64,000 nt of DNA. Origin: Cetorhinus maximus. Taxonomy: Eukaryota. Both the position numbers and the translations under genes were made by a program. The notes under the pieces were generated by a model. The model saw only the letters and a list, made by a program, of their open reading frames with translations, made no database searches and was not told where the DNA came from. Within the stretch, counting starts at the first letter, position 1. Every line of letters begins with the position of its first letter. Of this stretch, positions 281 to 38,600 are shown piece by piece. The stretch is taken from the NCBI RefSeq assembly GCF_964194155.1, contig NC_135899.1:52390001-52454000 (forward strand). The letters run 5' to 3'.

Positions 281-1420
281 TCAGCGATAATAATAATTGG
301 CCAGCAATGTCAATGGAAACAGCAATACAAGTAACTAAAAGCTTGGTCAATGAATTAAGTTTTAAGGAGAGTCGTAGAGAGGAGAGTGTTGAAAACACAG
401 GGAGGGGCTTGGGGAAACATAGACTTGGTGGGCAAGAGAAAGAGGGCAGTTGAACAGATGGCTTCAATCTGAGATAAACAAATCCACAAGCTCCTTGCAT
501 GTTGCTGGTGGGAGGCTGGAGGGTCTGGGAGTTTAAGGAGATTGCTAGCGGGGAAAAGCCATAAGTAATCTTTGTAGTGCAGGATAATCTGCAGTGAGCA
601 TAGCTTCGCTGCCCATCGTGAGCAATTCCTACGCCCATTTCCCTCACCACTTGACCTTCCAAACAAACAAGCACTTCTGCCTCACTCCACTTGCAAGGAA
701 CCCACCACCAAACATCATTCCACCGCCCTGCCCACCTCAAGAGATTCAAATTACTATTAGCAAACTCCAGGCTACAATCACACTGGTGGGAACTGACAGA
801 AACCAAGTACCGGGTGCCCTCTGGCAACGGCAGAGCACGAGGTGGCCATCCACACAAACTACAAAGGACATTTGTTTCCAAGAAAGAGTATCAACAACCT
901 TTCTTCCCATGGGCAATCACATAGTGGAACAAGCTACCAAAGGAAAACAGAGCCTCATCACTTGAAACCTTCAAGACACATTTTTAGATCATTTTTATTG
1001 ATACTTTTTCCAGGTCCATGGCTACCATGTTGGTGGATTCAGTTATAGCCTTAAAAAGAGTGTTGGATAAGTATTTGGTGCAGAAACAAAAAGTTCTGGG
1101 ATACGGGGGTGGGGTTGGGAGTTAGGAGTCAGGACATTGCTCTTTGAAGGGTTGTAGGTTGACTGCCCTCCTGCTGTGCTGTAGGTTTCTATTCTATATC
1201 AGTAGGTCATGATAGTTCAGCAGATTAAAGGATGTTAGCCCGTGATGGCGACACAGCCAAAGCAGAAAGGAAAGACCCACACACTCCGACCAGCTCCCAG
1301 GATTAGACAAGTTCCTTCAGTGCGACGGAAAACCTATAACTCAACCCGGTAAACACCATGTACCAGATTGTGAACATTAAAGCACGAAGGGACCCCCGCC
1401 CGCCTCCCGCATTAACTCAC

Positions 1421-1475
1421 CAGCTCCGCTTCTCCTTCCAACAACTCCGCGCCACAACTGTTTAATTTTCAAATC
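1421..1475 (-). other. Putative non-coding first exon (proximal) of a minus-strand gene, probably CDCA8
   Basis: Donor GCTG|GTGAGT (intron starts at 1420) lies ~50 bp from a CHR element in a CpG-rich region. Gene identity is inferred only from human C1orf109-CDCA8 head-to-head synteny. Confidence 0.55.
1468..1473 (-). promoter_or_regulatory. CHR element (TTTGAA) of a cell-cycle promoter
   Basis: Minus strand reads GGGATTTGAAAATT directly next to the CCAAT boxes. CHR plus NF-Y is the established G2/M (DREAM/MMB) promoter architecture. Confidence 0.65.
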
Positions 1476-1484
1476 CCTTGGCTC

Positions 1485-1990
1485 AACCAATCAGAAACAC
1501 TACCAATCCGCAGCCAATCACAAAGCGGCTACCGCAGTGACAGCCAATTACGCCCCAGCTTATGTAGCGGACGGCTAATCAGACCCAGGCTTCCTCAGCG
1601 GCCAGTCAATCACAACCCTTCTGGCTCACCGGACGGCCAATCTCGATTCGGCGGCCTCAGTGGACGGCCAATCACAGCCCGTGAGCGTCAGTGGGCGGCC
1701 AATTACGCCCCGGTTCTCAGTAGGCGGCCAATCACAACCCGCTTGCCTCACTGGCTAGCCAATCACGGACCGGCTCTCTCAGTAGACGGCCAATCACGAC
1801 CCGGCTACTTCACCGACCGGCTAATCAGGAACTGACCGGCTGCCACAGAGGACGACTAATCACAGCTCTGCATCAGTGAACGACCAATCAAGAACCGGCC
1901 GTCTTAGTGGGCGACCAATCAGCGTCCGGCTGCCTAAGTTTACGGCCAATCACAGCCCGGTTGTCTCAGTGGACGGCCAATCACAGCTCG
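1485..1990. repeat. Tandem CCAAT-box array, ~31-bp period, ~16 units plus 2 closely spaced boxes
   Basis: (C/T)CAAT or CTAAT at ~1514, 1544, 1576, 1607, 1638, 1669, 1699, 1728, 1759, 1790, 1821, 1856, 1884, 1915, 1946, 1977. Unit resembles GCCAATCACAGCCCGGTTGTCTCAGTGGACG. Confidence 0.9.
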
Positions 1991-2489
1991 ATTGAATACC
2001 TAAGTCTAAAGCACAGAAATTCTCAAACCTGAACTTCCTTTGAGGCGCCTCTTAAAACTTATTGTTTTTGACCAAGTTTTTATCTGCCCTTTGTGCCTCT
2101 TTCAGTGTCATTTTTTCACAGAAGGTGCCATTCAGTTATCATCAGAATTTAGTCCTGCTTCCCAGCTTCATCCTCCTACTCCTACAAATGAATTAAAATA
2201 CATGTCCAATATGTACCTATGGAATCTGGCTCACTGCCCTCTCATGTAAGTGTGTTCCAGACCTTAATAATCATATAATTGCTTTGGCGCAGAAGGAGGC
2301 CATTTGGTCCATTGTGTTTGTACTGGCCCTCCGAATGAGCAATTCCGTTAGTGCCATTCTCCTGCCTTCTCCCCATAACCTTGCACATTCTTCCATTTCA
2401 GATAACAGTTTACTTTCCTTTTGAATGCTTCAATAGAATCTGCCTCCACCACGCTCTCAGGCAGTGCGTTCCAGGCCTTATAACCACTC

Positions 2490-3310
2490 AATGCGTGAAC
2501 AAAATGATAAAAGCAAAATACTTCCTGATTGGACGCCTTCAACTAGCTTCTCTAGTTGTTTTCATATGCCTGCAGTTGTGCCAGTATATTTGGTTGTTCA
2601 CATCCACCGCGTATGATCAATGTGACAACTGCTATACACGTGTCCCAAGTTTCCATGTGGGCTCATTCCTGTTGAGAACATTGAAAGTTTGTATTCTGAA
2701 TGGCTCTCCAATGCTCAACTCTGGAAATTATTTGACAGTTTTGTCAAAATGTAATTTGGATTTCTGCTTTTTCACCTTGAGTATTTCATTCACTCTTCTG
2801 ACTTCAGTAGCTGTTTTGTTGTTGGAAGAGTAGTTTGGGTGTGGTGTGACATTAGTCTTTGGACTGAACTACTTTCCATGCCTTCAATCAGTGTGTTTTT
2901 CTACTCGAGGATTGCCCTGTATACATCTGTGCTAGATTTGCTTGATTTCTACATGATTCCTTTGGCGATTTTCACTGCCACCTCAAACTTTCCATTTGAC
3001 TGGGGATAGCGTAGAGATGATGTATAGTATTGAATTTCCCAATCCTTTGTGAAGCGGTTGAATTCTTCACTCATGAGCTGAGGGCCTTGTCACTCATCAG
3101 AATATCTGGAATGCCATAACAATTGAAGTGTGTTTTCAGGCATTATACAATCTCACCAGGAGACGTTGAAGCCAGCTAATCTAACTCCCAGTAGTCAGAA
3201 TAGTAGTCTATGGTGATAAGATAATCAGTTCCTTCTAGAGTAAACAGGTCTACTCACAACTTCATCCATGGTCTGTCTGGGATGTCATGCTTCATCAACG
3301 ACTCTCTAGC
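2490..3310 (-). mobile_element. Degenerate Gypsy/Ty3 integrase fragment
   Basis: Manual translation: HDIPDRPWMKL*VDLFTLEGTDYLITIDYYSDYWE...GPQLMSEEFNRFTKDWEIQYYTSSLRYPQSNGKFEVAVKIAK, with stops and frameshifts. Confidence 0.8.
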
Positions 3311-3311
3311 T

Positions 3312-4095
3312 TTTTTTCTAATTCATTTTTGGGATGTGGGCATTGCTGGCTAGGCCAACATTTATTGTACATCCCTAATTACCTTTGAGAAAGTGGCGGT
3401 GAGCTGCCTTCTTGAACCCCTGCAGTCCCTGTAGTGTAGGTGCACTCACAGTACTGTTAGGGAGGGAGTTCCAGGATTCTGACCCAGCGGCAGTGAAGGA
3501 ACAGCGATATATTTCCAAGTCAGGTTCATGAGTGACTTGGAGGGGATCTTCCAGGTGGAGGTGTTCCCATGTGTCTGTTGCCCTTGTCCTTCTAGATGGT
3601 AGTGGTCATGGGTTTGGAAGGTGCTATCTAAGGAGCGTTGGTGAGTTTCTGCAGTGCATCTTGTAGATGGTACACACTGCTGCCACTGTTCGTCAGTGGT
3701 GGAGGAAGTAAATGTTTGTGGAAGGGGTGCCAATCAGGCGGGCTGCTTTGTCCTGGCTGGTGTCAAGCTTCTTGAGTGTTGTTGGAGCTGCACTCATCCA
3801 GGCAAACGGAGAGTATTCCATCACATTCCTGACTTGTGCCTTGTAGATGGTGGACAGGCTTTGGGGAGTCAGGAGGTGAGTTCCTCGCTGCAAGATTCCT
3901 AACCTCTTGCCTTTGTAGGCACAGTATTTATATGGCTAGTCCAGTTCAGTTTCTGGTCAATGGTAACCCCCAGGATGTTGATAATGCGGGCTTCAGCAAT
4001 AGTAATGCCATTGAATGTCAAGGGGTGATGGTTAGATTCTCTCTTGTTGGAGATGGTCGTTGCCTGGCATTTGTGTAGTGCGAATGTTACTTGCT
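3312..4095 (-). mobile_element. CR1-clade LINE 3' end (same family at 16495-16970, 24350-25155, 33380-33890, 61205-61605)
   Basis: IYKAQVRNVMEYSPFAWMSAAPTTLKKLDTSQDKAARLI, and a shared 3' tail ending cccacatccc...gaataaaaaa in several copies. Confidence 0.85.
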
Positions 4096-5030
4096 AGGCC
4101 CTGCTTGCTAATTTTCTATCTAGCTCCCTAAATTCAGAGTGCAGGACCACATCCCTCTTTCTACCTATGTCATTGGTACCGATGTGAACCCTGACTGCTG
4201 GCTGTTCACCCTCCCCCTCAGAGTGCTCTAAATCATCCTCATTGTGAAAAAATCCTCTTGTTCTTTAGCAAATCTTAAAGTGACCTCTGATTACCAACCC
4301 ATCTGCCAGTTTCTGTCTGCTTGTTCCATCAAACCTCTTCATAATTTTGAATACCTCTATTAGGTCTCTCCTTAAACTTCTTTGCTGTGGGAACATGGCA
4401 TCAGGAGCGGGACTTTAGCACCTCAAGCCATTCAATGAGATCATGACTGATCTGCAACAGGATTCCAAATCCACATACCCTTAATGCCTTTGATTAACAG
4501 ATTAATAATTAACAATTGCCATTTGCGAAAGGAAGTTCCAAATTTTTATCACCCTTTGCATATGCAAGTGTTTCCCAATTTCACTCCTGAAAGCTCTAAT
4601 TTTTAGGCTCTGCCTCCTCATCTTAGCCTAGAGGTTTGCAAACTGTGGCTTCGCGGGTGCATGCAGCTCATTAAGGACTCATGTCTAGTCCCCAGTATTC
4701 ATCAATCAAACCCATTTTGATGATAATTAAATGACACTTGTTTTTTTATTAAAATTTTATTAACATACTTGTGAGAATTCAATTACCAACTTTTTTGTAA
4801 ACACCTTTAAAATGTTAATGAAATATTTCTGTCTTGTTTTTCATTATTATTAGCATTTGAGTGACAGTATTGTGGCTTTTAAGATATTGTGTTTTTAACC
4901 CCTAAATTTTGAAAAGGGTTATTGTTATGAAGATAAAAACAAAAAGCTAAAAGCTACTGCGGATGCTGGAAATCCAAAACAAAATTTATATTTATATTTA
5001 TATTGCAAAAACTGCCCTTGGTAAGCTCAC

Positions 5031-5152
5031 CTCATTCCATGTCATCGGCTCAGTTCTAAACAGCGAGCTCGTAAACTCAACAGAGAGACGTTTTTTATAA
5101 TCCTGTGGTTTGTCTTCAGATATACGGAACAAAACTGCTGCAGCATAGGTAG
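5031..5152 (-). pseudogene. CTNNB1: Captured beta-catenin exon, copy 1 (two substitutions)
   Basis: 122-nt exon, ag|CTACC...GAG|gtgagc, reading (A)[40 protein letters not shown]. Confidence 0.93.
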
Positions 5153-6005
5153 CTTTATAAATACAAATTAGACTTCATTACGGTTTATACTTCTATCCCA
5201 TTTGGCATATTCAACACAAGCTCCAAGTGTCATGCATGCACACTTGGGAACAATCTGAACAAACACAAAGAAATCAGAGACAATGTACATCTCATGTAAT
5301 AGGGAACAGCCAAAAATGAAAAGGCAGCCAATCTGAACCATAAAAACAAATGTTGGTAGGTCAAAAGTACTTCAGATGCTGGAAAGCTGAAATAAAAACA
5401 GCACGCCTGCCACACATGTGCAGAAAGAAATAGAGTTAAGGTTTCAGATTTTGATAGAAGGTCATTGACCTGAAACATCAACTCTGTTTCTCTCCCCACA
5501 GGTGCTGCCAGACCTGCTGAGTATTTCCTGCACCTTTTTTTTTATTGCCTTAAGTGGGTACCATTCCCAGCTTGGTCTATTGATGGCCACATTGTACTGT
5601 GCTCATACTGGCATCGGTCAGAGATTAAATGGCCTGAAATCTAATGTGGTCCATCTAGGAACTTTGTTCCAATAACAGATTCACGTTAGGTCTATGGAAT
5701 TCTTGATGCTTTTTCACACACACAGAAATGTTAGATTGGCTCAACAGGTTTCAATCATTCTCTCTCAGACAGGCTTTGTACAGACATCAACTACCAAGCC
5801 TCATTAACCATGCACCCATTACTCAACAAACCAAGTTTGCCATTTCATTATACTCACATATATTTGCCATTTCATATATCCCTCCGCAAGCATTTCTGTG
5901 CACTCTCTCATACAACACACTAGAACTCTATGGGAAAATCTTAAATCAATACATAAATATTGAATTTCAGCTGAAATTTTTTAAAACAAAGCTAAATGTT
6001 CTTCA

Positions 6006-6188
<183 letters not shown>

Positions 6189-7629
6189 TCATTACGGTTT
6201 ATACTTCTATCCCGTTTGGCATATTCAATTTAAATCTCAATTTCAATATTTTAATTAAATCGGTTATACTTCTATCCCGTTTGGCATATTTCAATTTAAA
6301 TCTCCATTTATATTTCTCCCTTCTTCTAACTATGCTTCAGTTCTGCCGAAGGGCCATGAAGGCTCAAAACGTTAACTGATTTCTTCTCCGCCGATGCTGC
6401 CAGACCTGCTGAGTTTTTCCAGGTAATTTTGTTTTTGTTATTGTTATGAAGGTTGCCAATTATTGTTCTGGACTCTCCAATATTTTGTATCTATTTTATC
6501 TGTTCCCCTTAATATCTTGAAAACGTTAATCAAATCACCCTTTAACTTTCAAAATTCAAGGGAATACAACCCTAAATTGTGTAATCTCCCATTGTAATCT
6601 AACCTTTGGTGTCCAGATATCATTCTGGTAAATCTATGCAGCACCTCCTCCAAGGCAATACATCCTTCCTAAGATGTGGCGCTCAGAACTGCTCACACTA
6701 CTCCAGGTGTGGTCTAGCCAAGGATTTTTTTTAGGATGCAGCCTTCTAACCCCTTATTTTCTAGTACTCTTAGATATAAAGACTAGAATGCCATTATCCC
6801 TTTGATTATTTTCTGTAGCTGTTCATACTTTTTGAATGATTTCTGTACACGGGCTCCCAAGTCACCTTGGACCTCCACTGTTTCTAGCAGAATGCACTTT
6901 GTTCTGTCCTTTTTAGATCCAGAGTAGATGACCTCACATCTGCTTACACTGAATTGATTTAATCTATTAATAGCTCTGTACTTTCATGTTTTAATCTACA
7001 AGGTACATAATTCCACCCATCTTAGTGTCATTAGCAAACTTGGATATGTGGCTTTCTGTCCCACCATCTCAATCGTTAATATGGTAAATAGTTGAGGCCT
7101 TAACATAGATCCTTAATGTATACCACTAGTCATGTCATACCAATTAGTATACCTGCCCATTACCCCTACTCTCTGTTTTTTGCCACTCAGCCAATTTTCT
7201 AATCTGGTCAATAATTTGCCTCAATTCCATGTGCATCACATTTAGTTAAGTTTCTTATGAGGGATTTTACCAAATGCCTTCTGGGAACCCAGCAAAATAA
7301 CATCCATCGGCATTCCACCATGCACTACTTTAATCACCTCTTCAAAGAAATTCAATCAGGTTCATCAGGTGTGACCTATCCTTTACAAATCTATGCTGGC
7401 TGTCTCTGATCAACTGAATTTTCAAGGCATTCAATTACCCTATCCTTAATTATAGACTGTAGATATTTCCTGACAACAGATGTTGGGCTAACTGCTCTAT
7501 AATTCCCCGGTTTCCTGCTTTCAGCTTTCTTAAATAGCACAGTGGTGTGCAATTTTCCAATCTAAAGTAAGAATTTGAGCATCAAGACAACTTTGAAAGA
7601 TTATAGTGAGGACATCTGCAATGTCTCAT

Positions 7630-8200
7630 GGTATGGACAGGAGTGTGATTAATTTAAACAGCATAAATTCCTCTTCTTGCCACTTGCCTATAAATAGAAA
7701 AGTGTTTTGATTTGCTCCCCCCCGCCCCCCTGCCAATTTAAGCAATGGCTTTTTCCCAACCCCTCTGTTTTGGTGTGATCCAATTTTTATTATTAACCCC
7801 ACAGCAAACTTGAAAGAGGATGAACTCAAAGGGTTAGTTTATTTGCACACACTCAACGTGGTAGGAAGATCACAGCATTGCCTCCTTTGCCTTTGTACAG
7901 TAAAGGAGGGATAGAGAAAAGAAATATTAACAGTGCAGAGAGCACAGAGAAAAGAAGTATTGTTTCACATGGGTGCAGAGTCCAGAATCAAAGTCCAAAG
8001 AAGTATTCCTTCATGGAGGTCGGTGAGCAGAAAACTGATGCTGGATAATTCACTTTTCTGGTGGTGGTGAATTCACACGATGAGATAGGCATGCAGAGAT
8101 GAATAAGGCTTATAGGCGATGGTACAGAAGTTCCAGCAGAAACAGTGTAGATGCGGCCAGGTATTCAAGCTGGGTATTCAAGTAGTATGTCATAAATGAT
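7630..8200 (-). mobile_element. LTR-like repeat fragment (same family as 52959-53910)
   Basis: Collinear similarity: ggacaggag...taatttaaa...tgtgatcc...aagggtt..tttattt..cacactcaa...agtccagaatcaa...tggtacagaagttc. Confidence 0.6.
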
Positions 8201-8209
8201 CAGCTGTCC

Positions 8210-8601
8210 TTTTTTACTAACAGGCAGCTTGATGTTTATTCTTGATCATGCACAACTTAGAATTATCAGAAAGAAAAGCATGATTTTCTTTAAAAAATTA
8301 AAAAATAAGTTCAGGATTAAGATCATCAGGTTTTAAGTTACAGCCCAAAAGGAACATGAGAGAAGCAGATTTGTTGCTGACATACAGCAGGTTGTGGATG
8401 GGGAAGGTAAATGTAGTGTGATTATAGCCAAGCCCTGCATATTCAATGCACAATCTTCAAGCTTGCTCATGTTTGTGTGCCAAAAGCAGGAGACAAACCG
8501 AATAATGATTTCACTCGAGTCTCAAGAGGTCTACATCAAAAATCAAAGTAGCATTAGGTAGAATGACGCCAGGGTGGCCAGCAGCTCCATAAGCATAGTC
8601 A
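8210..8601 (-). pseudogene. 5'-truncated processed FKBP1A/FKBP1B-type retrocopy
   Basis: [29 protein letters not shown] (8601-8511), then a ~270-nt 3'UTR, AATAAA (~8235-8240) and a short A6 tail at ~8210-8215. Confidence 0.85.
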
Positions 8602-8981
8602 GTTCTTTTCTGTGAGGCTGCTTGTAGGATGGTAAACAGCAGACTGACTGCCGTTTGCGATTGTCCCGGAATTTGGCTTGATCTCCCGTGGACTTCCCGA
8701 GACTCCATTTGTCCTGGATCTCTCCAGACAGCGAGGGAGAAAACTGCTCAAGGTCTCCCCTTGTCGCTGCCCAATCATTGTTGGTGTATGTGCACTATGC
8801 TGCCACCAGAGCTAGCACAGGGCTCATGAGCAGACACAGGGTGTAGCAGCACTAGTGGCTGGCACCACTGTTCTCCCAGCTTCAACAGATGGATGGTTGG
8901 CATTGCAGTTGGGTGAGTTTGAGTGGGAGGGTGGGTTCGGCAGGCTCCATCTCGCCCGAGTGGAAGGGACAGCAACACTAT

Positions 8982-10129
8982 GGGTAGAATTTTCCACTCG
9001 GCATGTGGGCGCGCACCAAACACGTGAAATAGCGTACGATAACATTGGATGAGCGTCCTGATGCCATTGCGCACTCACGTGATATTTCGATCGGTGGGTG
9101 TGCGCAAGAGTCAGCAGCGTGCCCGCCGACAATTAAGGGCCTGTTAAGACCGTTAATGGAGCAATTAACAGCAATTTTTCGCTGCCTGTCCAAAGTTACA
9201 GTTGGCGGGCGGGTGAATCAGCCAGGCGGCCTTTGCATTTTTGAAGAAACCTCAAACAAGGGCGGGATGAAGTTTCTGAGATTAATTCAAAAAAAGATTA
9301 AAGTGTTTGGACAGAATGTTCAGCGTCCGTATGTTGAGGTGCCTCATTCTGAGACCTGCACATTTTTTGAGGATTTTAAATTCTGATTTTATCGATTTTA
9401 AATTCGTCAGCTCTGTGAGGCAGCTCTCTGTCTTCAGGGAGCTTTCCTTCCGCACTCTCATGCTGACTTCAGCGTTCGCCCTCCTCCCGCCCCGGCAGTA
9501 TTTTATTTGTAGACCCAATTATAAAATTTATGCCATCAATACACAGGCTCCACCAACTTCCTTGATCTTCTCTTCAGCCTTCCTGCTGAAGAACTTTGCC
9601 TTGACAATGACTGGCTGTTTTGGTAGTCTTCCTTTGCCCAGGACTTTATAGTAACCAGCATGCACAACATCAATAACAGGTGCTGGTCCTTCAGGTTTCT
9701 TGGCATAGTTTAATCTGGTCTGTTCACTGACCAGCGTCCACAGCTTATCCAGATTTATGGTCGGACAGAACAACTGATTCTTCTTTAGATGATAATGTCT
9801 CATACCAACTTTTCCAAAGTAACCTGGATGATATTTATCAAAGTTGATTCTGTGATGATGCATACCACCAGCATTGCCACGACCACCAGGATGCTTCCTG
9901 TGTTTGCCAATACGGCCATGACCATGGCTAACGTGTCCTCTTAACTTCCTGGTTTTTCTCAATCTGGATGGCATCTTGGCTGATGACGCAAAAGAGCTCC
10001 CGCCCCGGCAGGGCTGAGCCTTTCAGCGTGCCTTTCACGCTGGCTGGGCGGCCGTTAATTGGCCATCCAGTGTGAAACCGCGGTCAGCGGCTTGTTCCCC
10101 AGTCGCCCGCCGGCCCTAAAATTCTACAC
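8982..10129. mobile_element. Non-autonomous Harbinger/PIF-type MITE hosting the RPL27A retrocopy
   Basis: TIRs GGGTAGAATTTT and AAAATTCTACAC, 3-bp flanks tat/tgt. Same family as 13038, 22674, 23426, 37517 and 56253. Confidence 0.75.
9499..9996 (-). pseudogene. RPL27A: Processed RPL27A (uL15) retrocopy with intact 148-aa ORF (9528-9974)
   Basis: [37 protein letters not shown]..., no introns, 5'TOP CTCTTTT start, 15-bp TSD CTCCCGCCCCGGCAG at 9484-9498 and 9997-10011. Confidence 0.95.
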
Positions 10130-10556
10130 TGTAGTTCCAGCATCCCCTCCTGTTCCTTTGGTCCCTGGTAGCGCCCAGCCCCAGGGCTGCTTTGGTCTGT
10201 CACCAGCCTCCACCTTCCACTCTCCAGGTGAAGGGTCCCTCAATTCCACCCCCCCTCCTCCCCGTTGGTCACCCTGGTTATGTCCTGGAACGCGGTGCCT
10301 GAAAGACAGACCAGGGGAAACAAATTCAATCACTTTCAAAAGGGAATTGGATAAGTACTTGAACTGGATAAATTTTGCAGGGTTACGGGGGAATGCGACT
10401 AAATGAATAAACTGCACCAAAGAGCTAGCACAGGCACGCTGGGCCGAATGGCCTCAGTGCGGAGTGGGTGGCCCTGTCCCGATGCCCCTGGAGAGGAGGG
10501 GGGGTGGCGGGGTAGGGGAGTGGGTCCGGTGAAAGTGACGCACGATCATTACTGAC

Positions 10557-10612
10557 CGCTCAGCTTCTCACTGACAATCGCCGGCCCACGCCACTACAGT
10601 TTAAAATTCAAG
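10557..10612 (-). other. Putative distal non-coding first exon plus CHR variant, paralogous to 1421-1475
   Basis: Donor GCG|GTCAGT (intron starts at 10556), CTTGAA/TTTAAA at 10600-10612, and visible similarity to the proximal cassette. Confidence 0.5.
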
Positions 10613-10621
10613 TACAGCAAA

Positions 10622-10865
10622 TGAGCCAATCACAGTACAGCCGGTACATGTATCCGCCAATCACAGTGCGGCCGGCTGAGGAGACCGCTAGTCACAATGC
10701 AGGCGGTTGAGGAGGCAGCCAATCACAGTGCGGCCGGTTGAGGAGACAGCTAATCATAGTGCGGGCGGTTGAGAAGACAGCCAATCACAGTGCGTCCGAC
10801 TGAGGAGACAGCCAATTACAATGTGGCCAAATGAGGAGCTAGCCAATCACAGTGCAGCCTGCTGA
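10622..10865. repeat. Second CCAAT array, 8 units at an exact 31-bp period
   Basis: GCCAAT, GCTAAT or GCTAGT at 10625, 10656, 10687, 10718, 10749, 10780, 10811, 10842. Confidence 0.9.
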
Positions 10866-11049
10866 CGGGACTGTCATTTACCATGCGCTTTTCCCAGGGC
10901 AGGGCCACAAGGTTCAATATTGAAAAGCTAAAATATTTTTTGAGAATTTAAGAGGAACAAAAAAAGCCGAAGAGTCAAACCTACCATCCTATTCTCAGTT
11001 TCGATTTAGATATTGGTGCGATAGAAATTGAAATTTTACTGTGGGCAAG

Positions 11050-11102
11050 GCATTATGGGACTTGTAGTCCTGAAGTGGTGCGGCGGCGGCAGCGCGCATG
11101 CG
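11050..11102. promoter_or_regulatory. ZNF143 (SBS/ACTACA) and NRF1 sites of the AIRIM promoter
   Basis: Reverse complement GACTACAAGTCCCATAATGC at 11050-11069 and GCGCGCATGCG at 11092-11102, in a CpG-rich stretch. Confidence 0.8.
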
Positions 11103-11142
11103 GGAATCCTGCGCTCCGCGGAATCGGATCCAATTTCGGGCG
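11100..11142 (+). other. AIRIM: Putative non-coding exon 1 of AIRIM
   Basis: Donor GCG|GTGAGA at 11143 (alternative CAG|GTACCG at 11165) just downstream of the promoter motifs. The start is approximate. Confidence 0.5.
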
Positions 11143-11587
11143 GTGAGAGTGTGTGGTGGTGCAGGTACCGTGTTCCAAACAGGCATTTGGGGTGAAGGCC
11201 CATCACTGCAGTTAAAGTCACCGTGGTTGTCACGTGAGCCGGTTGGAACTGGCCAGGGTTAAGCCTGTGTAGGAAAGGGACGGAGCCTGTATGACCTTCT
11301 CCCATCTGGGTTTCTCAGGTTCAATGCAGTGGGATATCTTAACTCGTTTAGCAACCCCAGGCAGGACACCTTACAGACTGTCAATGTGCAAGTACAGTAC
11401 AACTGAAAAACTCGAGGAAGTCTTTCAGAGTGTTAGTAGTAAGGGAATGGGGCTCTGTAGGACCAAATCGTGATTGCATTCTCAGTGCACTTTGTTGCTG
11501 ACAGCAAATTGCATTTATATAGCTTCCAGGAAAACGGCCAAAGGCACTTCACAGGATCATCATCAGTCAGAGGTTGATAATGAACCA

Positions 11588-15195: not shown

Positions 15196-15341
15196 ATATA
15201 TTTTTAAAACTAAATTTTAATAATTTGATCACGTACAAATGAAGCATGCCCTTTATCTGTTTCATTTCACAGGATTTTTTTTTATTGTTTGGATTTATTA
15301 TCTTGTGATTCTTTATTACTGTAGGTTTCTATAACAAACTA

Positions 15342-15613
15342 ATGGCTCAGAGACAAGCGGTGCTGGCTGTTCATCAAGCCCTCAAGAAATGTTTCCAGGT
15401 CATTGAGCAGCAACAAAATTCATGGGAAAGTACACTGACAGAATGCCTCCCCCTCCTGAGCTCACTGAGTAACCTGGCGGAGCAACTCCAGGCATGCAAC
15501 AACGTGGTGCTTAAGAATACTCCCTTTCAAGAATTCCCTGATCTGCAACTCCGTCTGAAGTACAAACTCACCCAGGCTATCGAAATCAATTTGGAAAAGC
15601 TTGGTGAAAAAAT
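15342..15613 (+). CDS. AIRIM: AIRIM / C1orf109 (AFG2-interacting ribosome maturation factor), coding exon 1
   Basis: MAQRQAVLAVHQALKKCFQVIEQQQNSWESTLTECLPLLSSLSNLAEQLQA...LEKLGEK matches C1orf109. Acceptor ag at 15323-24, donor AT|gtaggc. Confidence 0.93.
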
Positions 15614-18389
15614 GTAGGCTCTGACATCATTCATCTATTGATAATTAAGCCTAAAGTGCCATCTTGGGACATTAATTTGTACAAGCATTGACTTATTGCT
15701 GAAATCAGGCTAGATCTAATGTTAGATAAATTTATGGGCATTTCATTTTTGTGGGAAAGCTGATGGCTTCTGCAGGAAAGCTGGCCTAAAAGGGGGTTAG
15801 TGGGCCCAAAATTCTGCAGAACAAGAACAAAATTACTGCTGTTTTCCTGGGCTCCCAGTTGTTGAATCTTGCGTTCGTCAAATTGACATGTTGGCTTTGG
15901 AGAATAGAAGACTTGCCAGTTCAGGCATTCTCTGAGTTGAATAATCCCAGGTCATGTATTGCACAGTTAAGTGCTGAGTAAAGCCGCCTCTACTTTGTGG
16001 CAGTGATGTGCCTATTTCTCCACTTCAGAAGAGTGCATTTCTTACTTGCCACGTGCTTACTGCACCCCTACACCACCCCCAGATATCTTGTCAATTTGAT
16101 GCGTATTAATATCCAGTTTGGGTGATTTTGTGAGGTGACAACTCCCTCCCCCCAATGCTGTTTAAGAAATGGCTTGTGATAGCACAGAGAGAAGCGTCAC
16201 TGGACATGGCCTCAGGTCAGAAATGGGGCTCAGTCCCTAGCCAGCATTCCCCACTAAGGAGGCTCTGCACTAATAGTCCGATGTCATTAAACCATTCCTT
16301 CTAATGTCTCCAAGCAAGAATGATGTAATTCGTAATTTTATTTTAAAGTAAACAAGAACGAAAAGATCTCCAGGTGACCACAATATAAAGAGAGTTTTGA
16401 CAGTGAGCCACAATTTCAGTGTAGTTCTACTGCCTTAAAAAAAACCATAGAAAAGCTAAAAAAAAAACCACTGAAAAGCTGAAATTTCCCTTGGGCAGCT
16501 CCAACAACACTTGAGATGCTACACCATCCAAGACAAAGCAGCCTGCTTGATTGGCACCCCTTCCACAAACATTCACTCCCTCCACCTCCAACAATGAACA
16601 GTGGCAGCAGTGTATACCAGCTACACGATGCACTGCAGAAACTCAGCAAGGCTCCTTAGGCAGCACCTTCCAAACCCACGACCCCTACCATCTAGAAGGA
16701 CAAGTGTAGCAGACTCATGGGACCACCGCCACCTGGAAGTTCCCCTCCAAGCCACTCACCATCCTGACTTAGAAATATATCGCTGTTACTTCACTGTCAT
16801 TGGTCAAAATCCTGGAACTCCCTCCCCAGTGGCACTGTGGGTGTACCTACACCACATGACAGCAGCAGTTCAAGAAGGCAGCTCACCACCACCTTCTCAA
16901 AGACAATTAGGATGGGCAATAAATGTTGGCCTAACCAACAAAGTCCACATCCCGTAAATGAATAAAAAAACATACATTTGTTATTATGTTCTCAAATTTG
17001 ATTCATTTATTTTATTCACATTTTTGTCTCCTTGAGGATAATTATGACTTTGGCTGATGGTGTCATTTTTGAAAATCAAGGGAGATGTAAAATGGGCATC
17101 TGATCTAATACTATCTCCCATTTTACCGCCCTCCCTCCCCCACACTCCCCCTTCATGTTTTATAGGGCACTGCCTCATGCCAGTAGGCACATATAGGGCA
17201 CAGGAGCTGGGCACTCTTCAATATTTGGCCCAAGTGAGGTTAGATAATCAGTTTTGGTGTGTTATTCAGCTTGTCTTCAATGTACACTGATTAAGATTCA
17301 CTGGATAAGGAATGGGAGCCTTGTTTACTTTCTTCCCTCTCCAGCAATGTGATGCTGAGGCCAGTTACAGGGTGCCCACTGACATGACAGAGAGGTCAGC
17401 TAGCTCCATACAGTTTGAGAATTTGAATGGGAGTGTGTCTTTTGTTTTGTACGGGAGTGCTGTCCCCTGATCATATTGGTGAAACTTCATCTTGAAACCT
17501 TGTGCACTTTAGTTACAAATTCATAGTTATTGTAAATTTCACCTGGCTTGCCGAACTATCCCCACTCCAAATAATGTGGTGTTATTAACTTTGGTTTGGT
17601 TTGGATTAACTGTTGCCTTCTTGTTAATTCTCTTGTTGTTTAATCTCTGAAAGATCATCCATACAATTCAAAGGTTCAGAAGAGGAATGGAAGGTAAAAG
17701 CGAAGAAAATAAAACATATTCTAATATTAAGACATCTTATTGAGAAGTAACCTCCATTTACCTGGTACCTTATATCTCTGGGACATCCATATCAAATAAG
17801 TTACATTTGAACTGCAGTGGTGGTCAACCAAATGGATGCGCTAGGCTTCACAAATCACAAATTATATGACAAGCAGTCTGTTTTTGGTGGTTGGCTTGGG
17901 AACTAGTAAAACTCACTGTTCTTCAAATTGTCTGTAAGATATTAAATCAAACTCAGTTGAACATCCAATCTAAAAGACAGCACCCTATGAAAGTGCAGCA
18001 TTCCCTTAGTTTCAGCCTAGACGGTGTTCAAATACTGAAGTGGGCCTTGAACCCACAACCTTCTGACTTTGAGGTAAAAGTGCCAACAACTGAACCAAGC
18101 TGATTTGCCTGTCAGAACTACTAGGATAAATTATTTAACTATGTAAATTCGCTGTTTTTGTGCACAATGTTGAGCTGAATTGGAAATCCATGATTTTTAT
18201 AAGTGACTCCAGAAGACTAAAATGAACTTGCAGTGCCGTGGAATCAGGCTTAAACTGTGGTAGTTGTTACATTTCTAATTGAGATTTCACAGAGAGCCAG
18301 GGAGGAATATCCCATGTGGCTGTAATTTGAATTTGTTTGGTAATTAATCTTGATTGAACTAATGCTGTTCTTTTCCAACATCTGTCAAG

Positions 18390-18569
18390 GAGTGCTTTGC
18401 AAAGGGTACGGGACACAACGAATAACCAAGTGACAGTGTGCTTCCAAATGTATGAACAACATGCTGATGCCATTGGTTTGACTGCAGTCCTTGAGCGCTC
18501 ATGTCTCTGTCCTTCTGTGGCAGACATGTTGGAATGGCTTCAAAATATCCAGCGGTTTTACAGAAGCCA
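18390..18569 (+). CDS. AIRIM: AIRIM coding exon 2
   Basis: aag|G AGT..., reading SALQRVRDTTNNQVTVCFQMYEQHADAIGLTAVLERSCLCPSVADMLEWLQNIQRFYRSQ. Ends at U12 donor GTATCCTT. Confidence 0.93.
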
Positions 18570-18968
18570 GTATCCTTAACGTTGGCCCTTGTGCCTACAG
18601 GGCATCCCTCCTGGCTGGTGTCACTCTGCGGTAACTTCACAGGAAATGTAGGATCAGTGATGTGGCAATTCTATGCTGTTCCTTAAGATAGAAGGGTTGG
18701 CATCCTAAAACAGGTGTAATTGCAGAGGATTGAATGCGTGTTGTGAGGGGAAAGGGTGGTGGGGGAGTGGCGGTGGTAGGGGTTGGTGGGTGGTGTAGGG
18801 TTAGGTGGGAGGTGCAGGCAAGTGGGATGATGGTGGGAGCAGAGGGAATGAACATACGAATTAGGAGCAGGAGTAGGCCACTTGGCCCTTTGAGCCTGCT
18901 CTGCCATTCAATAAGATCATGGCTGATCTGATTATAACCTCAACCCTACATTCCCACCTACCCCTGAT

Positions 18969-21398
18969 TCTCAGCACGGACTATAAAATATTCGCTAGAG
19001 CCATGTCTTCTCGGCTCGGCACCGTGCTGGACCAAATGATCCACCCTGACCAGTCCTACACCGTCCCGGACCGTACAATTTATGATAACATCCATCTGGT
19101 CCGGAACATAATCCACCATTCCCAGAGGGCTGGTCTGTCGAGCGCCTTCCTGTCCCTTGATCAGGAGAAGGCGTTCGACAGGGTGGATCACGAATATTTA
19201 CTCGGGACTCTGCGAGCATTCGGTTTCGGGACGCACTTTGTCACCTGGATCCGACTTCTGTACACCGCCGCGGAGTGTCTAGTGAAGGTTAACGGGTCCC
19301 TGACGGCACCCCTTCGCTTTGGGAGAGTGGTACGTCAGGGCTGCCCCCTGTCTGGCCAGTTGTATTCTATTCGCGTGGAGCCTTTCCTGCGCCTCTTGCG
19401 GAAGAGGTTGTCGGGATTGGTTCTGCGCGGGCCGGGCATCGGGGTGGTCCTTTCGGCATACGCCGATGACGTGCTCCTAATGTTTAATGACCCGGCTGAC
19501 CTGCAGAGGATGCGCGAGTGCCAGGAGGTCTACTCTGCGGCTTCTTCTGCCGGGATCAACTGGGAGAAATGTTCTGGACTCCTGGTCGGCCCATGGCAGA
19601 TGGATCCCCTACCCAAGGAGCTCAGGCCTTTCACCTGGAGCAGGACCAGCATCCTCTACCTGGGGGTCCATTTCTGCCCTGCCGAGGAATCCTGGCCGGC
19701 CAACTGGCAGGAACTGGAGACGAAAGTCACCGCTCGCCTGCGGCGCTGGACAGGACTGCTCCGAGTGCTGTCTTACCGGGGTCGAGTTCTCGTCATAAAC
19801 CAGCTGATCGCCGCCATGTTGTGGTATCGGCTGGTCACTTTGACCTCTCCCCCGGACTTTGTCGTAAAAATCCAGAGAATGCTAGTTGACTTCTTCTGGG
19901 ACAAAAGATTGCACTGGGTCGCTGCTGAGGTTCTGAGTCTCCCGCTTAGGGAGGGCGGTCAGGTGCTAGTGTGCCTACGCACGCAGGTGGCAACTTTCCG
20001 TCTTCAGACCCTGCAGCGATACCTTTACGTCGAGCCTCCTCCGAGATGGTGTGCCCTGGCGACGTATTTCTTCCGCCAGGTGCACGGCCTGAATTATGAC
20101 ATGCAGCTCCTGTTTATAGAGCAGAGGGGCCTCGGTGGCTCCTTCCAGGTGTTGCCCGTCTTTTACCAGGACCTGATCAAAGTCTGGAACGTGGTCGCCT
20201 CGCGACGCAGCTCTCCCCCGTCAGGAGTAGCGGCTATCGTCAGAGAGCTGCTGCTCAGGAATCCGCCCCTCCGTCCCTTTCAGTGGCTGGCGGAGAGGAG
20301 GACTGTGGCTGCCGGGGTGACCAGGATCGGGGACGTACTGGGTGGCGGAGGACTGGGCTGGATGCTCCCACAGGAGTTGGCGCGCCGCGCGTCAGTGAGT
20401 GTCCAGGTCGCAGCCGATGCCATCCAAGACCTAAGAACGGTCGTGCTCGGACCCGAAGTCATTTTAGGTCTCGAGGTGGCCCAGGTGCGCGGTGATCTTC
20501 CGGCTGAACGTTCCCCTGTTCGGACGGAATTCCACATTGGCCCCAAGCCCCGAACCCTCCCTCGGGTGCCGGTGCCCCGCAATAATATGAGCCGCCTCGG
20601 GGACATGCCCTCCGTGCCATTTGGCACGGTGCGGAGGGGTTTTCTGTACGGTCTGCTGCTGCACACCTTCCATTTTCTCCCCCTGGTCCACCGCCCGGAC
20701 ACGCCCTGGCGTGCCTTGTTGCCGTCCGGCGGTGGAGGCCCCCGATGGGAGGCCCTCTACGGAGGAGTTCTCCCTCTTTCTATCGGGGACCTGGGTTGGA
20801 GGGTGTTGCATGCAGCAGTCCCCTACAATAGGAGGATGTTCAGGTTCACGGACTCCCAGGACACTTGCCCTTTTTGCGGTCTTGTGGAGTCCGTGGACCA
20901 TGCATATATAGGGTGTCTTAGGCTGCACTCCCTTTTTAGTTATTTAAAAAATCTTTTATTACTATTTTGTTTGCACTTCAGTCCCACGCTCCTGATCTAC
21001 GGACACCCGGTGCGGAAGGGGGTCGGGAAGGAGGAGGACCTCCTCGTGAACCTGCTCCTGGGCCTGGCCAAGTTGACCATCAACAGGTCCAGGCAGCAGG
21101 CGATCGACGGGGGAGTCCCGCCCGATCGTTTGTCCCTCTTCCGCGGCTACGTTCGTGGCCGGGTGTCCCTGGAAAGGGAGTACGCGGTGTCTGCCGGCAC
21201 CATCGAGGCCTTCTGTGCCCGGTGGGCACCGCGGGGACTGGGGTGTTTTGTTGACCCCTTTAATCACACCTTAGTTTGATGTTTGTAAGGTTCCTTTAAA
21301 GTTTTTCCTTGATTTTACAGCTGACCTGACTTAGGGGCTGTGCTTGATTTCTCCCTTGTTTTTGTTAATTTAGTTTATTGTTTTGACTCGAAAAGAGT
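18969..21398 (+). mobile_element. 5'-truncated Tx1-clade (L1 group) non-LTR retrotransposon with uninterrupted ORF2 remainder
   Basis: RT motifs SLDQEKAFDRV, RQGCPLSG, YADD and C-terminal CPFCGLVESVDHAYIGC zinc knuckle. TSD TACCCCTGAT at 18959-18968 and 21399-21408. Confidence 0.93.
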
Positions 21399-35619: not shown

Positions 35620-38600
35620 AGGTTGGGTGGGGGGTGATATGGTTGGGAGGGTTGCAGGGTAGCCAGGGTGGGGGCAGTGGGGTGTAATCGGGGGTGTGGG
35701 GAGTGCAGTCGGGTTGAGGGTGTAGTCGGGGGAGTGGGGAGGGCAGTCAGGGGAGTGGGGATGTAGTCGTGGGTTGGGGAGGGCAGTTGGGGGGTATTGG
35801 TGTGTAGTTGGGGGGTGGGAGGGGTAGTTGGGGGTGGGGAGGGCTGTCGGGGGTGAGGGCAGCAATGGGGTGGGGTGAAGTTAGGGGGTGGTGAAGGCAG
35901 TCGGTGGGTGGAGAGGGCTGTTGGGATGAGGTTGCAGTCTGGGGGATGGGGAGGGCAGTCAGGGTGGATGTGTAGTTGGGAGTGTGGGGAACGCAGTTGG
36001 TGGGGTGGGGAGCGTAGGGTTGTAGTAAGGGGTTGTAGAAGATCCCCTAGGAAACAGTGACCATAACGTGGTACAATTTAGCATTCAGTTTGAGTGAGAA
36101 ACTTAGGTCGGAAACAAATGTGCTGAACTTAAGTAAGGGTAATCACAAGGAAATGAGGGCAGAGTTGGCTGGAGTGGACTGGGAAAGGAGCTTAGCAGAA
36201 AAGGCAGTTGATGAACAATGGCAGACGTTTAAGAAAATAGTTCATGACTCTCAACAAAGATATATCCCAGTGAGGAAGAAGGATACTAGGAAGAGGGTAA
36301 ACCAACCATGGTTAACCAAGGAAGTTAAGGATAGTATCAAATTGAAAGAAAAAACATACAATGTGGCAGAGATTAGTGGTAAGCCAGAGGATTGGGAAAG
36401 TTTTAAAAACCAACAAAAGATGACCAAACAGACAATAAAGAGGGAGAAAATAAACTTTGAGGGCAAACTAGCAAGCAATATAAAAATGGACAGTAAAAGC
36501 TTCTTTAAATATATAAAAAGGAAGGGAGAGGCCAAAGTGAACATAGGCCCCTTAGAGAATGAAGCTGGGGAAATAATAATGGGGAACGAGGAAATTTCAG
36601 AGGCATTGAATAAATACTTTGTATCAGTCTTCATGGTAGAAGACACTAATAGCATTCCAAAAATACTAAATAATCAAGGGGCAAAAGTGGGGGGATGTGG
36701 GGGAGGAAATAAATACAATAACTATCACTAGAGAAAAAGTACTAGGGAAACTAATGGGGCTAAAGGCCGATAAGTCCCCTCGACCTGATGGGTTGCACCC
36801 TAGGATATTGAAGGAAGTAGCTGCAGAGATAATGGATGCACTGGAAGTAATCTTTCAAGAATTCTTAGATTCTGGAAAACTCCCAGAGGATTGGAAAACT
36901 GCGAATGTAACACCTTTATTCAAAAATGGAGGGAGACAAAAAAACAAGTAACTAAAGACCAGTTAGCTTAATGTCTGTCATTGGGAAAATGTTAGGGTCT
37001 ATTATAAAGAATGCAATGACAGATCATTTAGAAATGCATAATATAATCAAGCAGAGTCAGCATGGCTTCATGAAGAGCAAATGTATTAGAATTCTTTGAG
37101 GAGGTAACAAGCAGGATAGATAAAGGGGAACCAGTAGATGTAATATATTTGGATTTCCAAAAGGCATTTGATAAGATACTGCACATATGGCTACTTAAAA
37201 AGACAAGAGCCCATGGTGTTGGGGGTAATATATTAGCATGGACAGAGGATTGGCTAACTAATAGAAGACAGAGAGTTGGGATAAGGCATTTTCAGGATGT
37301 CAATCTGTACCAAGTGGACTGCCAGAGGGATCAGTGCTGGGGCCACAATTATTTACAATATAAATGACTTGGATGAAGGAAATGAATGTACTATCACCAA
37401 GTTTGCGGATGACACAAAAATAGGTAGGAAGGCAAGTGGTGAGGACGACATAAAGAGTCTACAGAGGGATATAGACGGATTTAGGAAGTGGGCAAAAACT
37501 TGGCAAATGGAATATAGGCCAGGATTTTTTAGTCGGTGTATGGGGGCTAGCCTGACATGCCGTGCGTAAAATGACACGCGCTGACATCGGGTGTGCGTCC
37601 CGACGTCATCATACCGTTTTGCGATGTTTCTTTTGGTGGGTGCGCGCCAGCCGATAATTACAAGGCCTGTTAAGGCCATTAAGGAACTAATTAATTCCAA
37701 TTTGACGCTGCCCTTCCAACCTAATGGTTGGTGGGCAGGCGAAAAGGCCAAGTGGCCTTTACGTTTTTAGGAAACCTCATCCATGAGCGGGATGAGGTTT
37801 CCTAAAGCTTTAACAAATTGAGTTAAAACATTTTCTGAAATATAAAAACATGTCCCATCTCATGTGACACAGTCACATGACGGGACATGTTTCATTAATT
37901 TTTTATTCCATTAATTTATTAATTTCAAAGGTGCCTCAATCTCCCTGAGGCAGCTCCGTGTGCGGAAGAGCACTGGCTCTGGCTCTCCCTCCTCCCCCCG
38001 CCTGCACAGGTAGCGCTACCGCTCGCATTTTACACTGGGCAGGCCTTAATTGGCCTGCCCGCATGAAATGGCAGTGTGGAGCCTTAGGAGCTTTGGTCTC
38101 CTTATCTAAGGAAAGATATACTGGCATTGGAGGCAGCCCAGAAAAGGTTCAGTAGGTTGATCCTGGGTATGGAGGGATTTTCTTATGAGGAGAGGTTGGG
38201 TTGGTTGGACCTGTACTCATTGAAGTTTAGAAGAATGAGAGGCAAACTTAATGAAACAGATAAGATTCTTAGGGGGCTTGACAGGGTAGATGCTGAGAGG
38301 TTGTTTCCCCTTCTGGGAGAGTCTAGGATCGGAGGGCATAATCTCAGAGTAAGGGATCGCCCATTTAAGACAGAGGTGAGGAGGAATTTCATCTCTGAGG
38401 GTGGTGAATCTGTGGAATTCTTTACCACAGAGGGCTGGAGAGGCTGGGTCGTTAAGTATATTCAAGGCTGAGTATTTTAATCAGTAAGGGAATTAAGGGC
38501 TATGGGGAAAAGGCAGGAAAGTGGAGTTGAGGATTATCAGGTCAGTCATGATCTCATTGAATGGCGGAGCAGGCTCGATGGGCCGAATGGCCTACTTCTA

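What the first reader, a model, noticed from the sequence alone, without database searches (positions are those of the whole stretch)
1410..10870. Duplicated promoter/first-exon cassette 9 kb apart
Seen: cattaactcaccagctccgcttctc...cgccacaactgtttaattttcaaat (1410-1474) aligns with cattactgaccgctcagcttctc...cgccactacagtttaaaattcaagt (10547-10613). Both keep a minus-strand GT donor and a CHR-type hexamer (TTTGAA versus CTTGAA/TTTAAA), and both are followed by a 31-bp CCAAT array with a differently homogenised unit. Inference: an old duplication gave one gene (probably CDCA8) two alternative promoters, with the arrays evolving concertedly but keeping the same period.
Basis: partly seen in the sequence, partly recalled or inferred. 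Interest (0 to 1): 0.72.

Follow-up and report, generated by a model that had tools for sequence, protein, structure and literature searches.

The report
Duplicated CDCA8 promoter beside AIRIM
The start region of the cell-division gene CDCA8 occurs twice, 9 kb apart, in this shark: the nearer copy is spliced into CDCA8 RNA in two related species, while the farther copy, next to the oppositely facing gene AIRIM, is likely an old duplicate that probably yields little CDCA8 RNA.

Summary
1410-1472 and 10547-10611 align at 48 of 67 columns, above 1000 of 1000 shuffles and best in 264 kb. Both carry a minus-strand donor, a CHR hexamer 19 bp from the first CCAAT box, and a 31-bp CCAAT array (16 and 8 units). 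The gene is CDCA8, whose ATG exon lies 3.6 kb left of the window; AIRIM/C1orf109 faces the other way. Spliced contigs of two related species join the donor at 1420 to that exon. Use of the donor at 10556 is untested. Two young sense-strand inserts, an RPL27A retrocopy with a poly(A) signal and two beta-catenin exon copies, lie in its would-be intron. The shared period is weak evidence: 31 bp is the preferred NF-Y spacing (PMC4982600), and unrelated 31-32-bp CCAAT minisatellites recur in this genome. The scan has noted such arrays at other cartilaginous-fish promoters, but not this duplicated cassette. Units group by array, in star shapes that fit separate expansions as well as concerted evolution. 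Best reading: a tandem duplication; the proximal copy is the main CDCA8 promoter, the distal one secondary.

The parts
1421..1475 (-). CDCA8 non-coding first exon, proximal copy (5' end approximate)
   Evidence: Contigs of runs X1 (organism A) and X3 (organism B) join L027:5320 (= window 1420) to the ATG exon across a GT..AG intron of 5030 nt; the DNA run X18 shows no such joint (mapping checked)
1415..1423 (-). Splice donor CTG|GTGAGT, used
1468..1473 (-). Canonical CHR hexamer TTTGAA
   Evidence: sequence; motif as defined in PMC4176359
1487..2004 (+). CCAAT array 1: two leading boxes, then 16 units of about 31 bp
   Evidence: CCAAT mismatches 4 of 80 against 121 of 352 in the spacers
5004..6228 (-). 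Young insert of genomic beta-catenin-gene DNA holding two copies of a 122-nt exon with both splice sites (5031-5152, 6045-6166)
   Evidence: 99% identical to G000:C3:200.487 Mb; peptide matches beta-catenin; splice sites
9499..9996 (-). Young RPL27A retrocopy, open 148-aa frame (9974-9531), AATAAA at 9507, 15-bp target-site duplication at 9484 and 9997
10551..10559 (-). Candidate splice donor GCG|GTCAGT, use untested
10557..10612 (-). Distal paralogue of the first exon, with CHR variants TTTAAA (10600-10605) and CTTGAA (10607-10612)
   Evidence: variants listed as functional in PMC4176359
10623..10870 (+). CCAAT array 2: 8 units of exactly 31 bp
11050..11165 (+). Candidate non-coding first exon of AIRIM/C1orf109 (CpG-rich, donor CAG|GTACCG); inferred
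   Evidence: not confirmed by RNA
15324..15614 (+). First coding exon of AIRIM/C1orf109; the next coding exon is at 18391-18567
   Evidence: PF15011 over its cut-off in both

Best explanation
Two homologous first-exon-plus-promoter cassettes of CDCA8 lie 9 kb apart, likely from an old tandem duplication; the proximal one is spliced to the CDCA8 ATG exon in two related species, and the distal one, left beside the head-to-head gene AIRIM, is probably a secondary start that yields little CDCA8 mRNA. Shown: homology, gene identities, the proximal splice, the inserts. Inferred mechanism: NF-Y trimers bind the CCAAT boxes three helical turns apart and activate; MuvB complexes at the CHR repress in G0/G1 and activate in G2/M; transcription starts near the CHR and runs left into a 35-55-nt non-coding exon. 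After the duplication each copy likely amplified its own diverged 31-bp box into an array, and mobile DNA filled the gap. The distal copy likely stays unmethylated as part of AIRIM's CpG island and may still fire leftward. Its transcripts would meet the RPL27A poly(A) signal within about 1 kb and two stray ATG-bearing beta-catenin exons before reaching CDCA8.
For: Homology beyond chance and beyond shared motifs; same 19-bp CHR-to-box offset; consensus units share 13 of 22 spacer positions (90 of 100000 shuffles) and 10 of 19 on a stricter count (1157 of 100000). Proximal splice seen in 2 of 3 RNA-type runs laid, from two studies, and not in the DNA run. At least 5243 of the 8556 bases between the cassettes match sequence elsewhere in the fetched DNA, so the gap is largely inserted. 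Both young gene-derived inserts lie in CDCA8 sense. CpG observed/expected is 0.64-0.81 over the distal cassette and 1.13 at the AIRIM exon. In human head-to-head pairs the CHR regulates only one partner (PMC4176359).
Against: The distal copy keeps 16 of 18 donor, CHR and first-box positions against 41 of 68 other columns (Fisher p 0.026), which leans toward selection on it, though drift of that copy alone gives this with p about 0.17. Its array abuts its own CHR exactly as in the used copy and ends about 200 bp short of the AIRIM exon, a geometry that favours leftward firing. The inserts are very young (98-100% to their sources) and may be private to this lineage or animal; sense orientation of 2 of 2 arises by chance one time in four. 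The unrelated C3 array shares 10 of 22 spacer positions with array 2, so unit homology is modest.
Confidence: 0.5

Rival explanations
1. Both cassettes are full alternative CDCA8 promoters used in different tissues or stages (for example germline against soma).
For: The distal copy keeps a GT donor with 6 of 9 consensus positions, two functional CHR variants, the 19-bp offset and 6 of 8 exact boxes; it is CpG-rich; its array is the more uniform of the two (73% against 58%).
Against: No distal junction has been observed; the RPL27A poly(A) signal and two intact stray exons lie in the 14-kb intron it would need; motif retention is compatible with drift (p about 0.17).
Confidence: 0.3
2. The distal cassette is a dead relic; array 2 is a neutral minisatellite that grew from its decayed CCAAT box, like other CCAAT minisatellites in this genome.
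For: CCAAT cores in array 2 are not significantly better kept than spacers (3 of 40 against 32 of 176, p 0.15), unlike array 1 (p 8e-9). CpG-poor CCAAT minisatellites of 5 to 86 units exist elsewhere without a CHR beside them.
Against: CpG density is kept across the cassette; all 7 steps are exactly 31 bp; donor, CHR and offset survive although flanks no longer align.
Confidence: 0.13
3. There was no duplication: two CpG-rich NF-Y/CHR promoters converged on the same motifs and spacing.
For: 31 bp is the preferred CCAAT spacing at human promoters (PMC4982600); the aligned stretch is only 67 columns; flanks do not align.
Against: Similarity persists with motifs blanked (32 of 5000 shuffles); each cassette's best non-self match in 264 kb is the other; spacer consensus identity exceeds shuffles.
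Confidence: 0.07

Closest known systems
[quoted passage not shown]
   Same: CHR hexamer near the start, CCAAT boxes upstream of it, same gene
   Different: 18 and 8 boxes built from tandem units rather than a few (three in CDC25C, PMC4747163), and the whole module present twice
CCAAT direct repeats at 31 bp in NF-Y-bound promoters (PMC4982600, passages)
   Same: 31-bp first-C to first-C spacing, same orientation
   Different: described there as dimers; here long arrays
Human ABO CBF/NF-Y minisatellite (PMC7187371, passages)
   Same: tandem units, each with a CCAAT box, upstream of a gene
   Different: 43-bp unit, one or four copies, about 3.7-3.9 kb upstream, effect disputed; here 31 bp, directly against the CHR
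Mouse Sarsm-Mrps12 bidirectional promoter (PMC1802594, abstract and outline)
   Same: a CCAAT array between head-to-head genes, NF-Y active both ways
   Different: four boxes in under 200 bp, one shared promoter, no duplication, not a tandem repeat
Genes with tandemly duplicated variable first exons, such as UGT1A and clustered protocadherins (recalled; search found nothing)
   Same: duplicated promoter plus first exon upstream of common exons
   Different: there many coding first exons, all used; here two short non-coding ones, only one shown to be used

Membership tests
CHR (DREAM/MuvB) late cell-cycle promoter | A functional CHR hexamer | tested here: met
   TTTGAA (proximal); TTTAAA and CTTGAA (distal); all three named functional in PMC4176359
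CHR (DREAM/MuvB) late cell-cycle promoter | CHR on or close to the transcription start | tested here: inconclusive
   Cover by the spliced contigs reaches about 36 (X1) and 52 (X3) letters into the proximal exon, near the CHR, but contigs cannot show a start; distal copy not examined
CHR (DREAM/MuvB) late cell-cycle promoter | CCAAT boxes upstream of the CHR | tested here: met
   First box 19 bp from the hexamer start in both copies
CHR (DREAM/MuvB) late cell-cycle promoter | The gene is a late cell-cycle gene | tested here: met
   CDCA8 by PF10444 and PF10512; listed in Table 1 of PMC4176359
CHR (DREAM/MuvB) late cell-cycle promoter | DREAM, MMB or FOXM1-MuvB binding and cycle-dependent output | not testable with these tools
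   needs ChIP or reporter assays
Alternative promoters of one gene | A common downstream exon with its own acceptor | tested here: met
   AG acceptor 6 nt before the ATG at C22:52386391
Alternative promoters of one gene | Proximal first exon spliced to the common exon | tested here: met
   joint in X1 and X3, both related species; the own-species run X9 has no cover there
Alternative promoters of one gene | Distal first exon spliced to the common exon | not tested
   no RNA was laid on the distal cassette; open
Local promoter duplication | Similarity above chance and beyond shared motifs | tested here: met
   0 of 1000 shuffles; 32 of 5000 with motifs blanked
Local promoter duplication | Alignable flanks or breakpoints | tested here: not met
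   score 19 beyond the arrays, reached by 497 of 500 shuffles; the intron-side hit is a dispersed repeat
Concertedly evolving tandem arrays | Units more alike within than between arrays, with array-specific columns | tested here: met
   24 of 24 units have their nearest unit in their own array; one change on the tree, support 91/90, bootstrap not settled
Concertedly evolving tandem arrays | Continuing homogenisation (high identity within an array) | tested here: inconclusive
   58% in array 1 and 73% in array 2, star-shaped trees: one expansion and drift fits as well
Concertedly evolving tandem arrays | Species-specific unit variants spread through orthologous arrays | tested here: inconclusive
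   only one low-depth contig (2.8) of organism B, 32 letters shorter inside array 1
ABO-type NF-Y minisatellite enhancer | Tandem units each holding a CCAAT box | tested here: met
ABO-type NF-Y minisatellite enhancer | Distal position, kilobases upstream of the start | tested here: not met
   both arrays begin 14 nt from a CHR; array 1 abuts the used first exon
ABO-type NF-Y minisatellite enhancer | NF-Y binding and enhancer activity shown | not testable with these tools
   needs EMSA, ChIP or reporter assays

The most novel reading that the evidence does not exclude
Duplication split a shared head-to-head promoter in two: CDCA8 took a private cell-cycle promoter 9 kb away from AIRIM, each copy then multiplied its own NF-Y site into a phased ladder, and the distal copy still fires, as a tissue-restricted CDCA8 start or now into the intact RPL27A retrocopy just downstream. 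That would be a natural case of promoter subfunctionalisation without gene duplication.
Probability: 0.3. Interest if true: 0.6.

Novelty: new variant of a known kind. Interest (0 to 1): 0.38.

Why it matters
Every ingredient is known: CHR, NF-Y boxes at 31 bp, CCAAT minisatellites, duplicated first exons. The case is useful as a compact natural experiment. Two paralogous cell-cycle promoters in one locus, with 18 and 8 phased boxes and different neighbours, allow a direct test of whether box number tunes G2/M output and of how a mitotic gene is uncoupled from a head-to-head housekeeping gene. If the distal copy is silent, this is an ordinary promoter with a leftover duplicate.

Tried and rejected
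No listed holder of the CDCA8 3' exons was on record as RNA; 15 of 20 rows were guessed RNA. I laid 4 of the 20. The own-species run X9 has no cover at the first two exons: no evidence either way. In X1 and X3 the depth over the ATG exon is fully accounted for by the one contig that joins the proximal exon; contigs drop rare variants and 914 loose ends were not shown, so this is not counted against the distal exon. DNA searches of the genome with either cassette or array found only themselves, at limited sensitivity: no retrocopy with a 5' UTR. The CDCA8 retrocopy on C15 stops at the ATG exon's edge and shares only two further letters with the proximal exon: uninformative. The 1037-1109 / 10324-10391 similarity was rejected as duplication evidence because the 10324 piece has better matches elsewhere in 264 kb. 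The pattern was swamped by a repeat family (1809 matches); the reversed-pattern controls are not fair controls for spacing, so no enrichment is claimed. The bacterial promoter scan does not apply. No look-alike windows in other genomes. The paper on NF-Y at the human CDCA8 promoter, recalled, was not held under the id I tried and is not used. Literature searches for this arrangement found nothing relevant.
Full report
Setting. The window is G000:C22:52390001-52454000 of a 4-Gb genome; earlier scan notes on this genome call it a shark, which I did not test. One N run (46239-46403) lies far from the finding.

Observation. Leaving the arrays out, a local alignment of 1000-1484 against 10100-10622 returns 1410-1472 with 10547-10611 at 48 of 67 columns, score 48; 0 of 1000 dinucleotide shuffles reach it. 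Scored against 1054 strand-windows over 264 kb, each cassette's best non-self match is the other. Blanking donor, CHR core and the GC block leaves a score reached by 32 of 5000 shuffles, so the likeness is more than shared motifs. The CHR hexamer starts 19 bp before the first CCAAT in both copies, though the 13 letters between them barely match. Flanks do not align: beyond the arrays 497 of 500 shuffles score as well, and the intron-side hit is a dispersed repeat.

The genes. Borealin profiles hit the minus strand 7.3 kb (PF10444) and 30 kb (PF10512) left of the window. A retrocopy on C15 maps four coding exons and matches human Borealin. The ATG exon begins at C22:52386391 with an AG acceptor six letters before the ATG, so CDCA8 needs a non-coding first exon. 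To the right, exons at 15324-15614 and 18391-18567 match PF15011, AIRIM/C1orf109, on the plus strand. A CpG-rich stretch ending in a donor at 11165 is its likely first exon (inferred). The distal cassette is thus at the head-to-head junction. That human CDCA8 and C1orf109 are head to head is recalled; the search found no paper on it.

RNA. I laid 4 of 20 listed runs on L027 (the ATG exon, the intron and the proximal cassette; window = L027 minus 3900). X1 (organism A) has a joint from the ATG exon to 5320, skipping 5030 letters with GT..AG ends, depth 17.7. X3 (organism B, another study) has the same joint, depth 81.3, its diverged exon start shown as 32 letters between. The DNA run X18 covers the intron and has no such joint; X9, the own species, has no cover. 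The runs are RNA by guess only, but an intron-sized skip at canonical ends absent from DNA is spliced RNA. So the donor at 1420 is used in two relatives. No RNA was laid on the distal cassette; its use is open. In organism B's DNA the piece over 1248-1524 differs at 27 of 277 letters, against 140 of 3449 in six intron pieces (p 1e-4). The working first exon region evolves fast, so 70% identity need not mean great age.

Arrays. Array 1 has 16 units (11 of 15 steps of 31 bp; 12 exact boxes) plus two leading boxes; array 2 has 8 units (7 of 7 steps of 31 bp; 6 exact). Mean unit identity is 58% within array 1, 73% within array 2 and 53% between. All 24 units have their nearest neighbour in their own array and the tree splits them in one cut, support 91/90, on 31 columns with an unsettled bootstrap. 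Each side is a star, which fits one expansion from a diverged unit followed by drift as well as continuing conversion. Consensus spacers share 13 of 22 positions (90 of 100000 shuffles), or 10 of 19 on a stricter count (1157 of 100000); the unrelated arrays on C3 and C4 share 4 to 10 of 22 with them. CCAAT cores are protected in array 1 (4 of 80 mismatches against 121 of 352, p 8e-9; units were anchored on the box, which favours this) but not significantly in array 2 (p 0.15). One contig of depth 2.8 in organism B replaces 52 letters of array 1 by 20, about one unit fewer; it may be an error.

The period is not a signature. Human NF-Y promoters peak at 31 bp between tandem boxes (PMC4982600, passages). 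A paired-box pattern gave 420 matches in this genome, 100 listed; I fetched 20 of those 100 and found chains of three or more boxes in 3. A tighter pattern gave 42 matches, all listed; 20 stretches fetched around those not yet seen held two 86-unit arrays of 32 bp at C22:41.53-41.54 Mb and two 4-unit arrays. None of these chains has a CHR hexamer within 80 letters on the side where the CDCA8 cassettes have theirs; one (L032) has TTTAAA 60 letters off on the other side. Earlier scan notes, unchecked, report CCAAT minisatellites at several other cartilaginous-fish promoters. The array is a recurring feature; the duplicated CHR-exon module is what is particular here.

Between the cassettes. At least 5243 of 8556 bases match sequence elsewhere in the fetched DNA. 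Two inserts are very young and lie in CDCA8 sense. An RPL27A retrocopy starts 560 bp past the distal donor; it has an open 148-aa frame, is 98-100% identical to spliced parent exons on C9, and has a 15-bp target-site duplication and AATAAA at 9507. About 1.2 kb of genomic beta-catenin-gene DNA, 99% identical to C3, brings two copies of a 122-nt exon with intact splice sites and 4-5 ATGs each. A transcript from the distal cassette would have to pass all of these. Other AATAAA or ATTAAA hexamers lie there too (14 in all), so one more is not decisive.

Mechanism. Shown: homology, gene identities, proximal splice in relatives, inserts. From established knowledge: NF-Y binds CCAAT in either orientation and can drive both directions (PMC1802594, abstract); CHR sites lie at the start of late cell-cycle genes, CDCA8 among them, and in head-to-head pairs regulate one partner only (PMC4176359, passages and Table 1). 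Inferred: a tandem duplication of exon 1 and its promoter left one copy on the CDCA8 intron and one on the AIRIM side; each amplified its box; insertions pushed them apart. I put 0.5 on the distal copy being kept but minor, 0.3 on a true second promoter, 0.13 on a dead relic and 0.07 on convergence. Against my reading: the distal copy keeps 16 of 18 motif positions against 41 of 68 others (p 0.026), though one-sided drift gives that with p about 0.17, and its geometry mirrors the working copy.

Known systems and novelty. Closest are CHR/NF-Y promoters, the ABO 43-bp NF-Y minisatellite (PMC7187371, passages) and duplicated variable first exons (recalled). PMC2687787 (passages) covers start-site turnover between duplicate genes, not within a locus; PMC4747163 (passages) gives three boxes for CDC25C. 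Other papers were seen as search listings only. Searches found no description of this locus or of a duplicated CHR-array cassette; most subscription papers are not searched. I read no supplements; those of PMC4176359 may place the human CDCA8 CHR. Verdict: real, correctly assigned to CDCA8, half proven as to function; a new variant of known kinds, interest 0.38.

Noticed in passing
window 9499-9996 (-): Full-length RPL27A retrocopy with an open frame, inserted in a dispersed repeat; its pyrimidine-rich 5' UTR ends in CAG five letters before the ATG and could serve as an acceptor for the distal donor (untested)
   Followed up: partly
window 5004-6228, with a 27-bp piece at 6264-6290: Rearranged 1.2-kb copy of genomic (intron-holding) beta-catenin-gene DNA from C3, 99% identical, giving the same exon twice; not a processed copy
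   Followed up: partly
G000:C15:73526.7 kb (L022:1369-1743, -): CDCA8 retrocopy holding only coding exons 1-4, cut at both ends
   Followed up: partly
window 18877-21276 (+): Open frame of 800 codons resembling a LINE reverse transcriptase (recalled likeness), GC- and CpG-rich, inside an AIRIM intron
   Followed up: no
L060:4323-7066 and L061:4162-6910 (G000:C22:41.53-41.54 Mb): Two 86-copy arrays of a 32-bp CCAAT unit 10 kb apart, CpG-poor, flanks not alike; a 41-bp array of 8.7 copies lies between them
   Followed up: partly
L030:4780-5284 (G000:C3:2.966 Mb): 31-bp minisatellite with CCAAT boxes on both strands of each unit
   Followed up: partly
L027:5148-5424 (window 1248-1524): The working first-exon region differs from organism B about twice as much as the intron beside it (9.7% against 2-6%)
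   Followed up: partly
L068 and L069 (G000:C14:91.76 Mb, C9:125.51 Mb): Two similar CpG-rich stretches with a CCAAT pair at 31 bp and a TTTGAA or CTTGAA hexamer 70-80 letters away; possibly paralogous promoters or a repeat
   Followed up: no
window 35669-35964 and 38634-39227: G-rich degenerate tandem repeats related to each other
   Followed up: no
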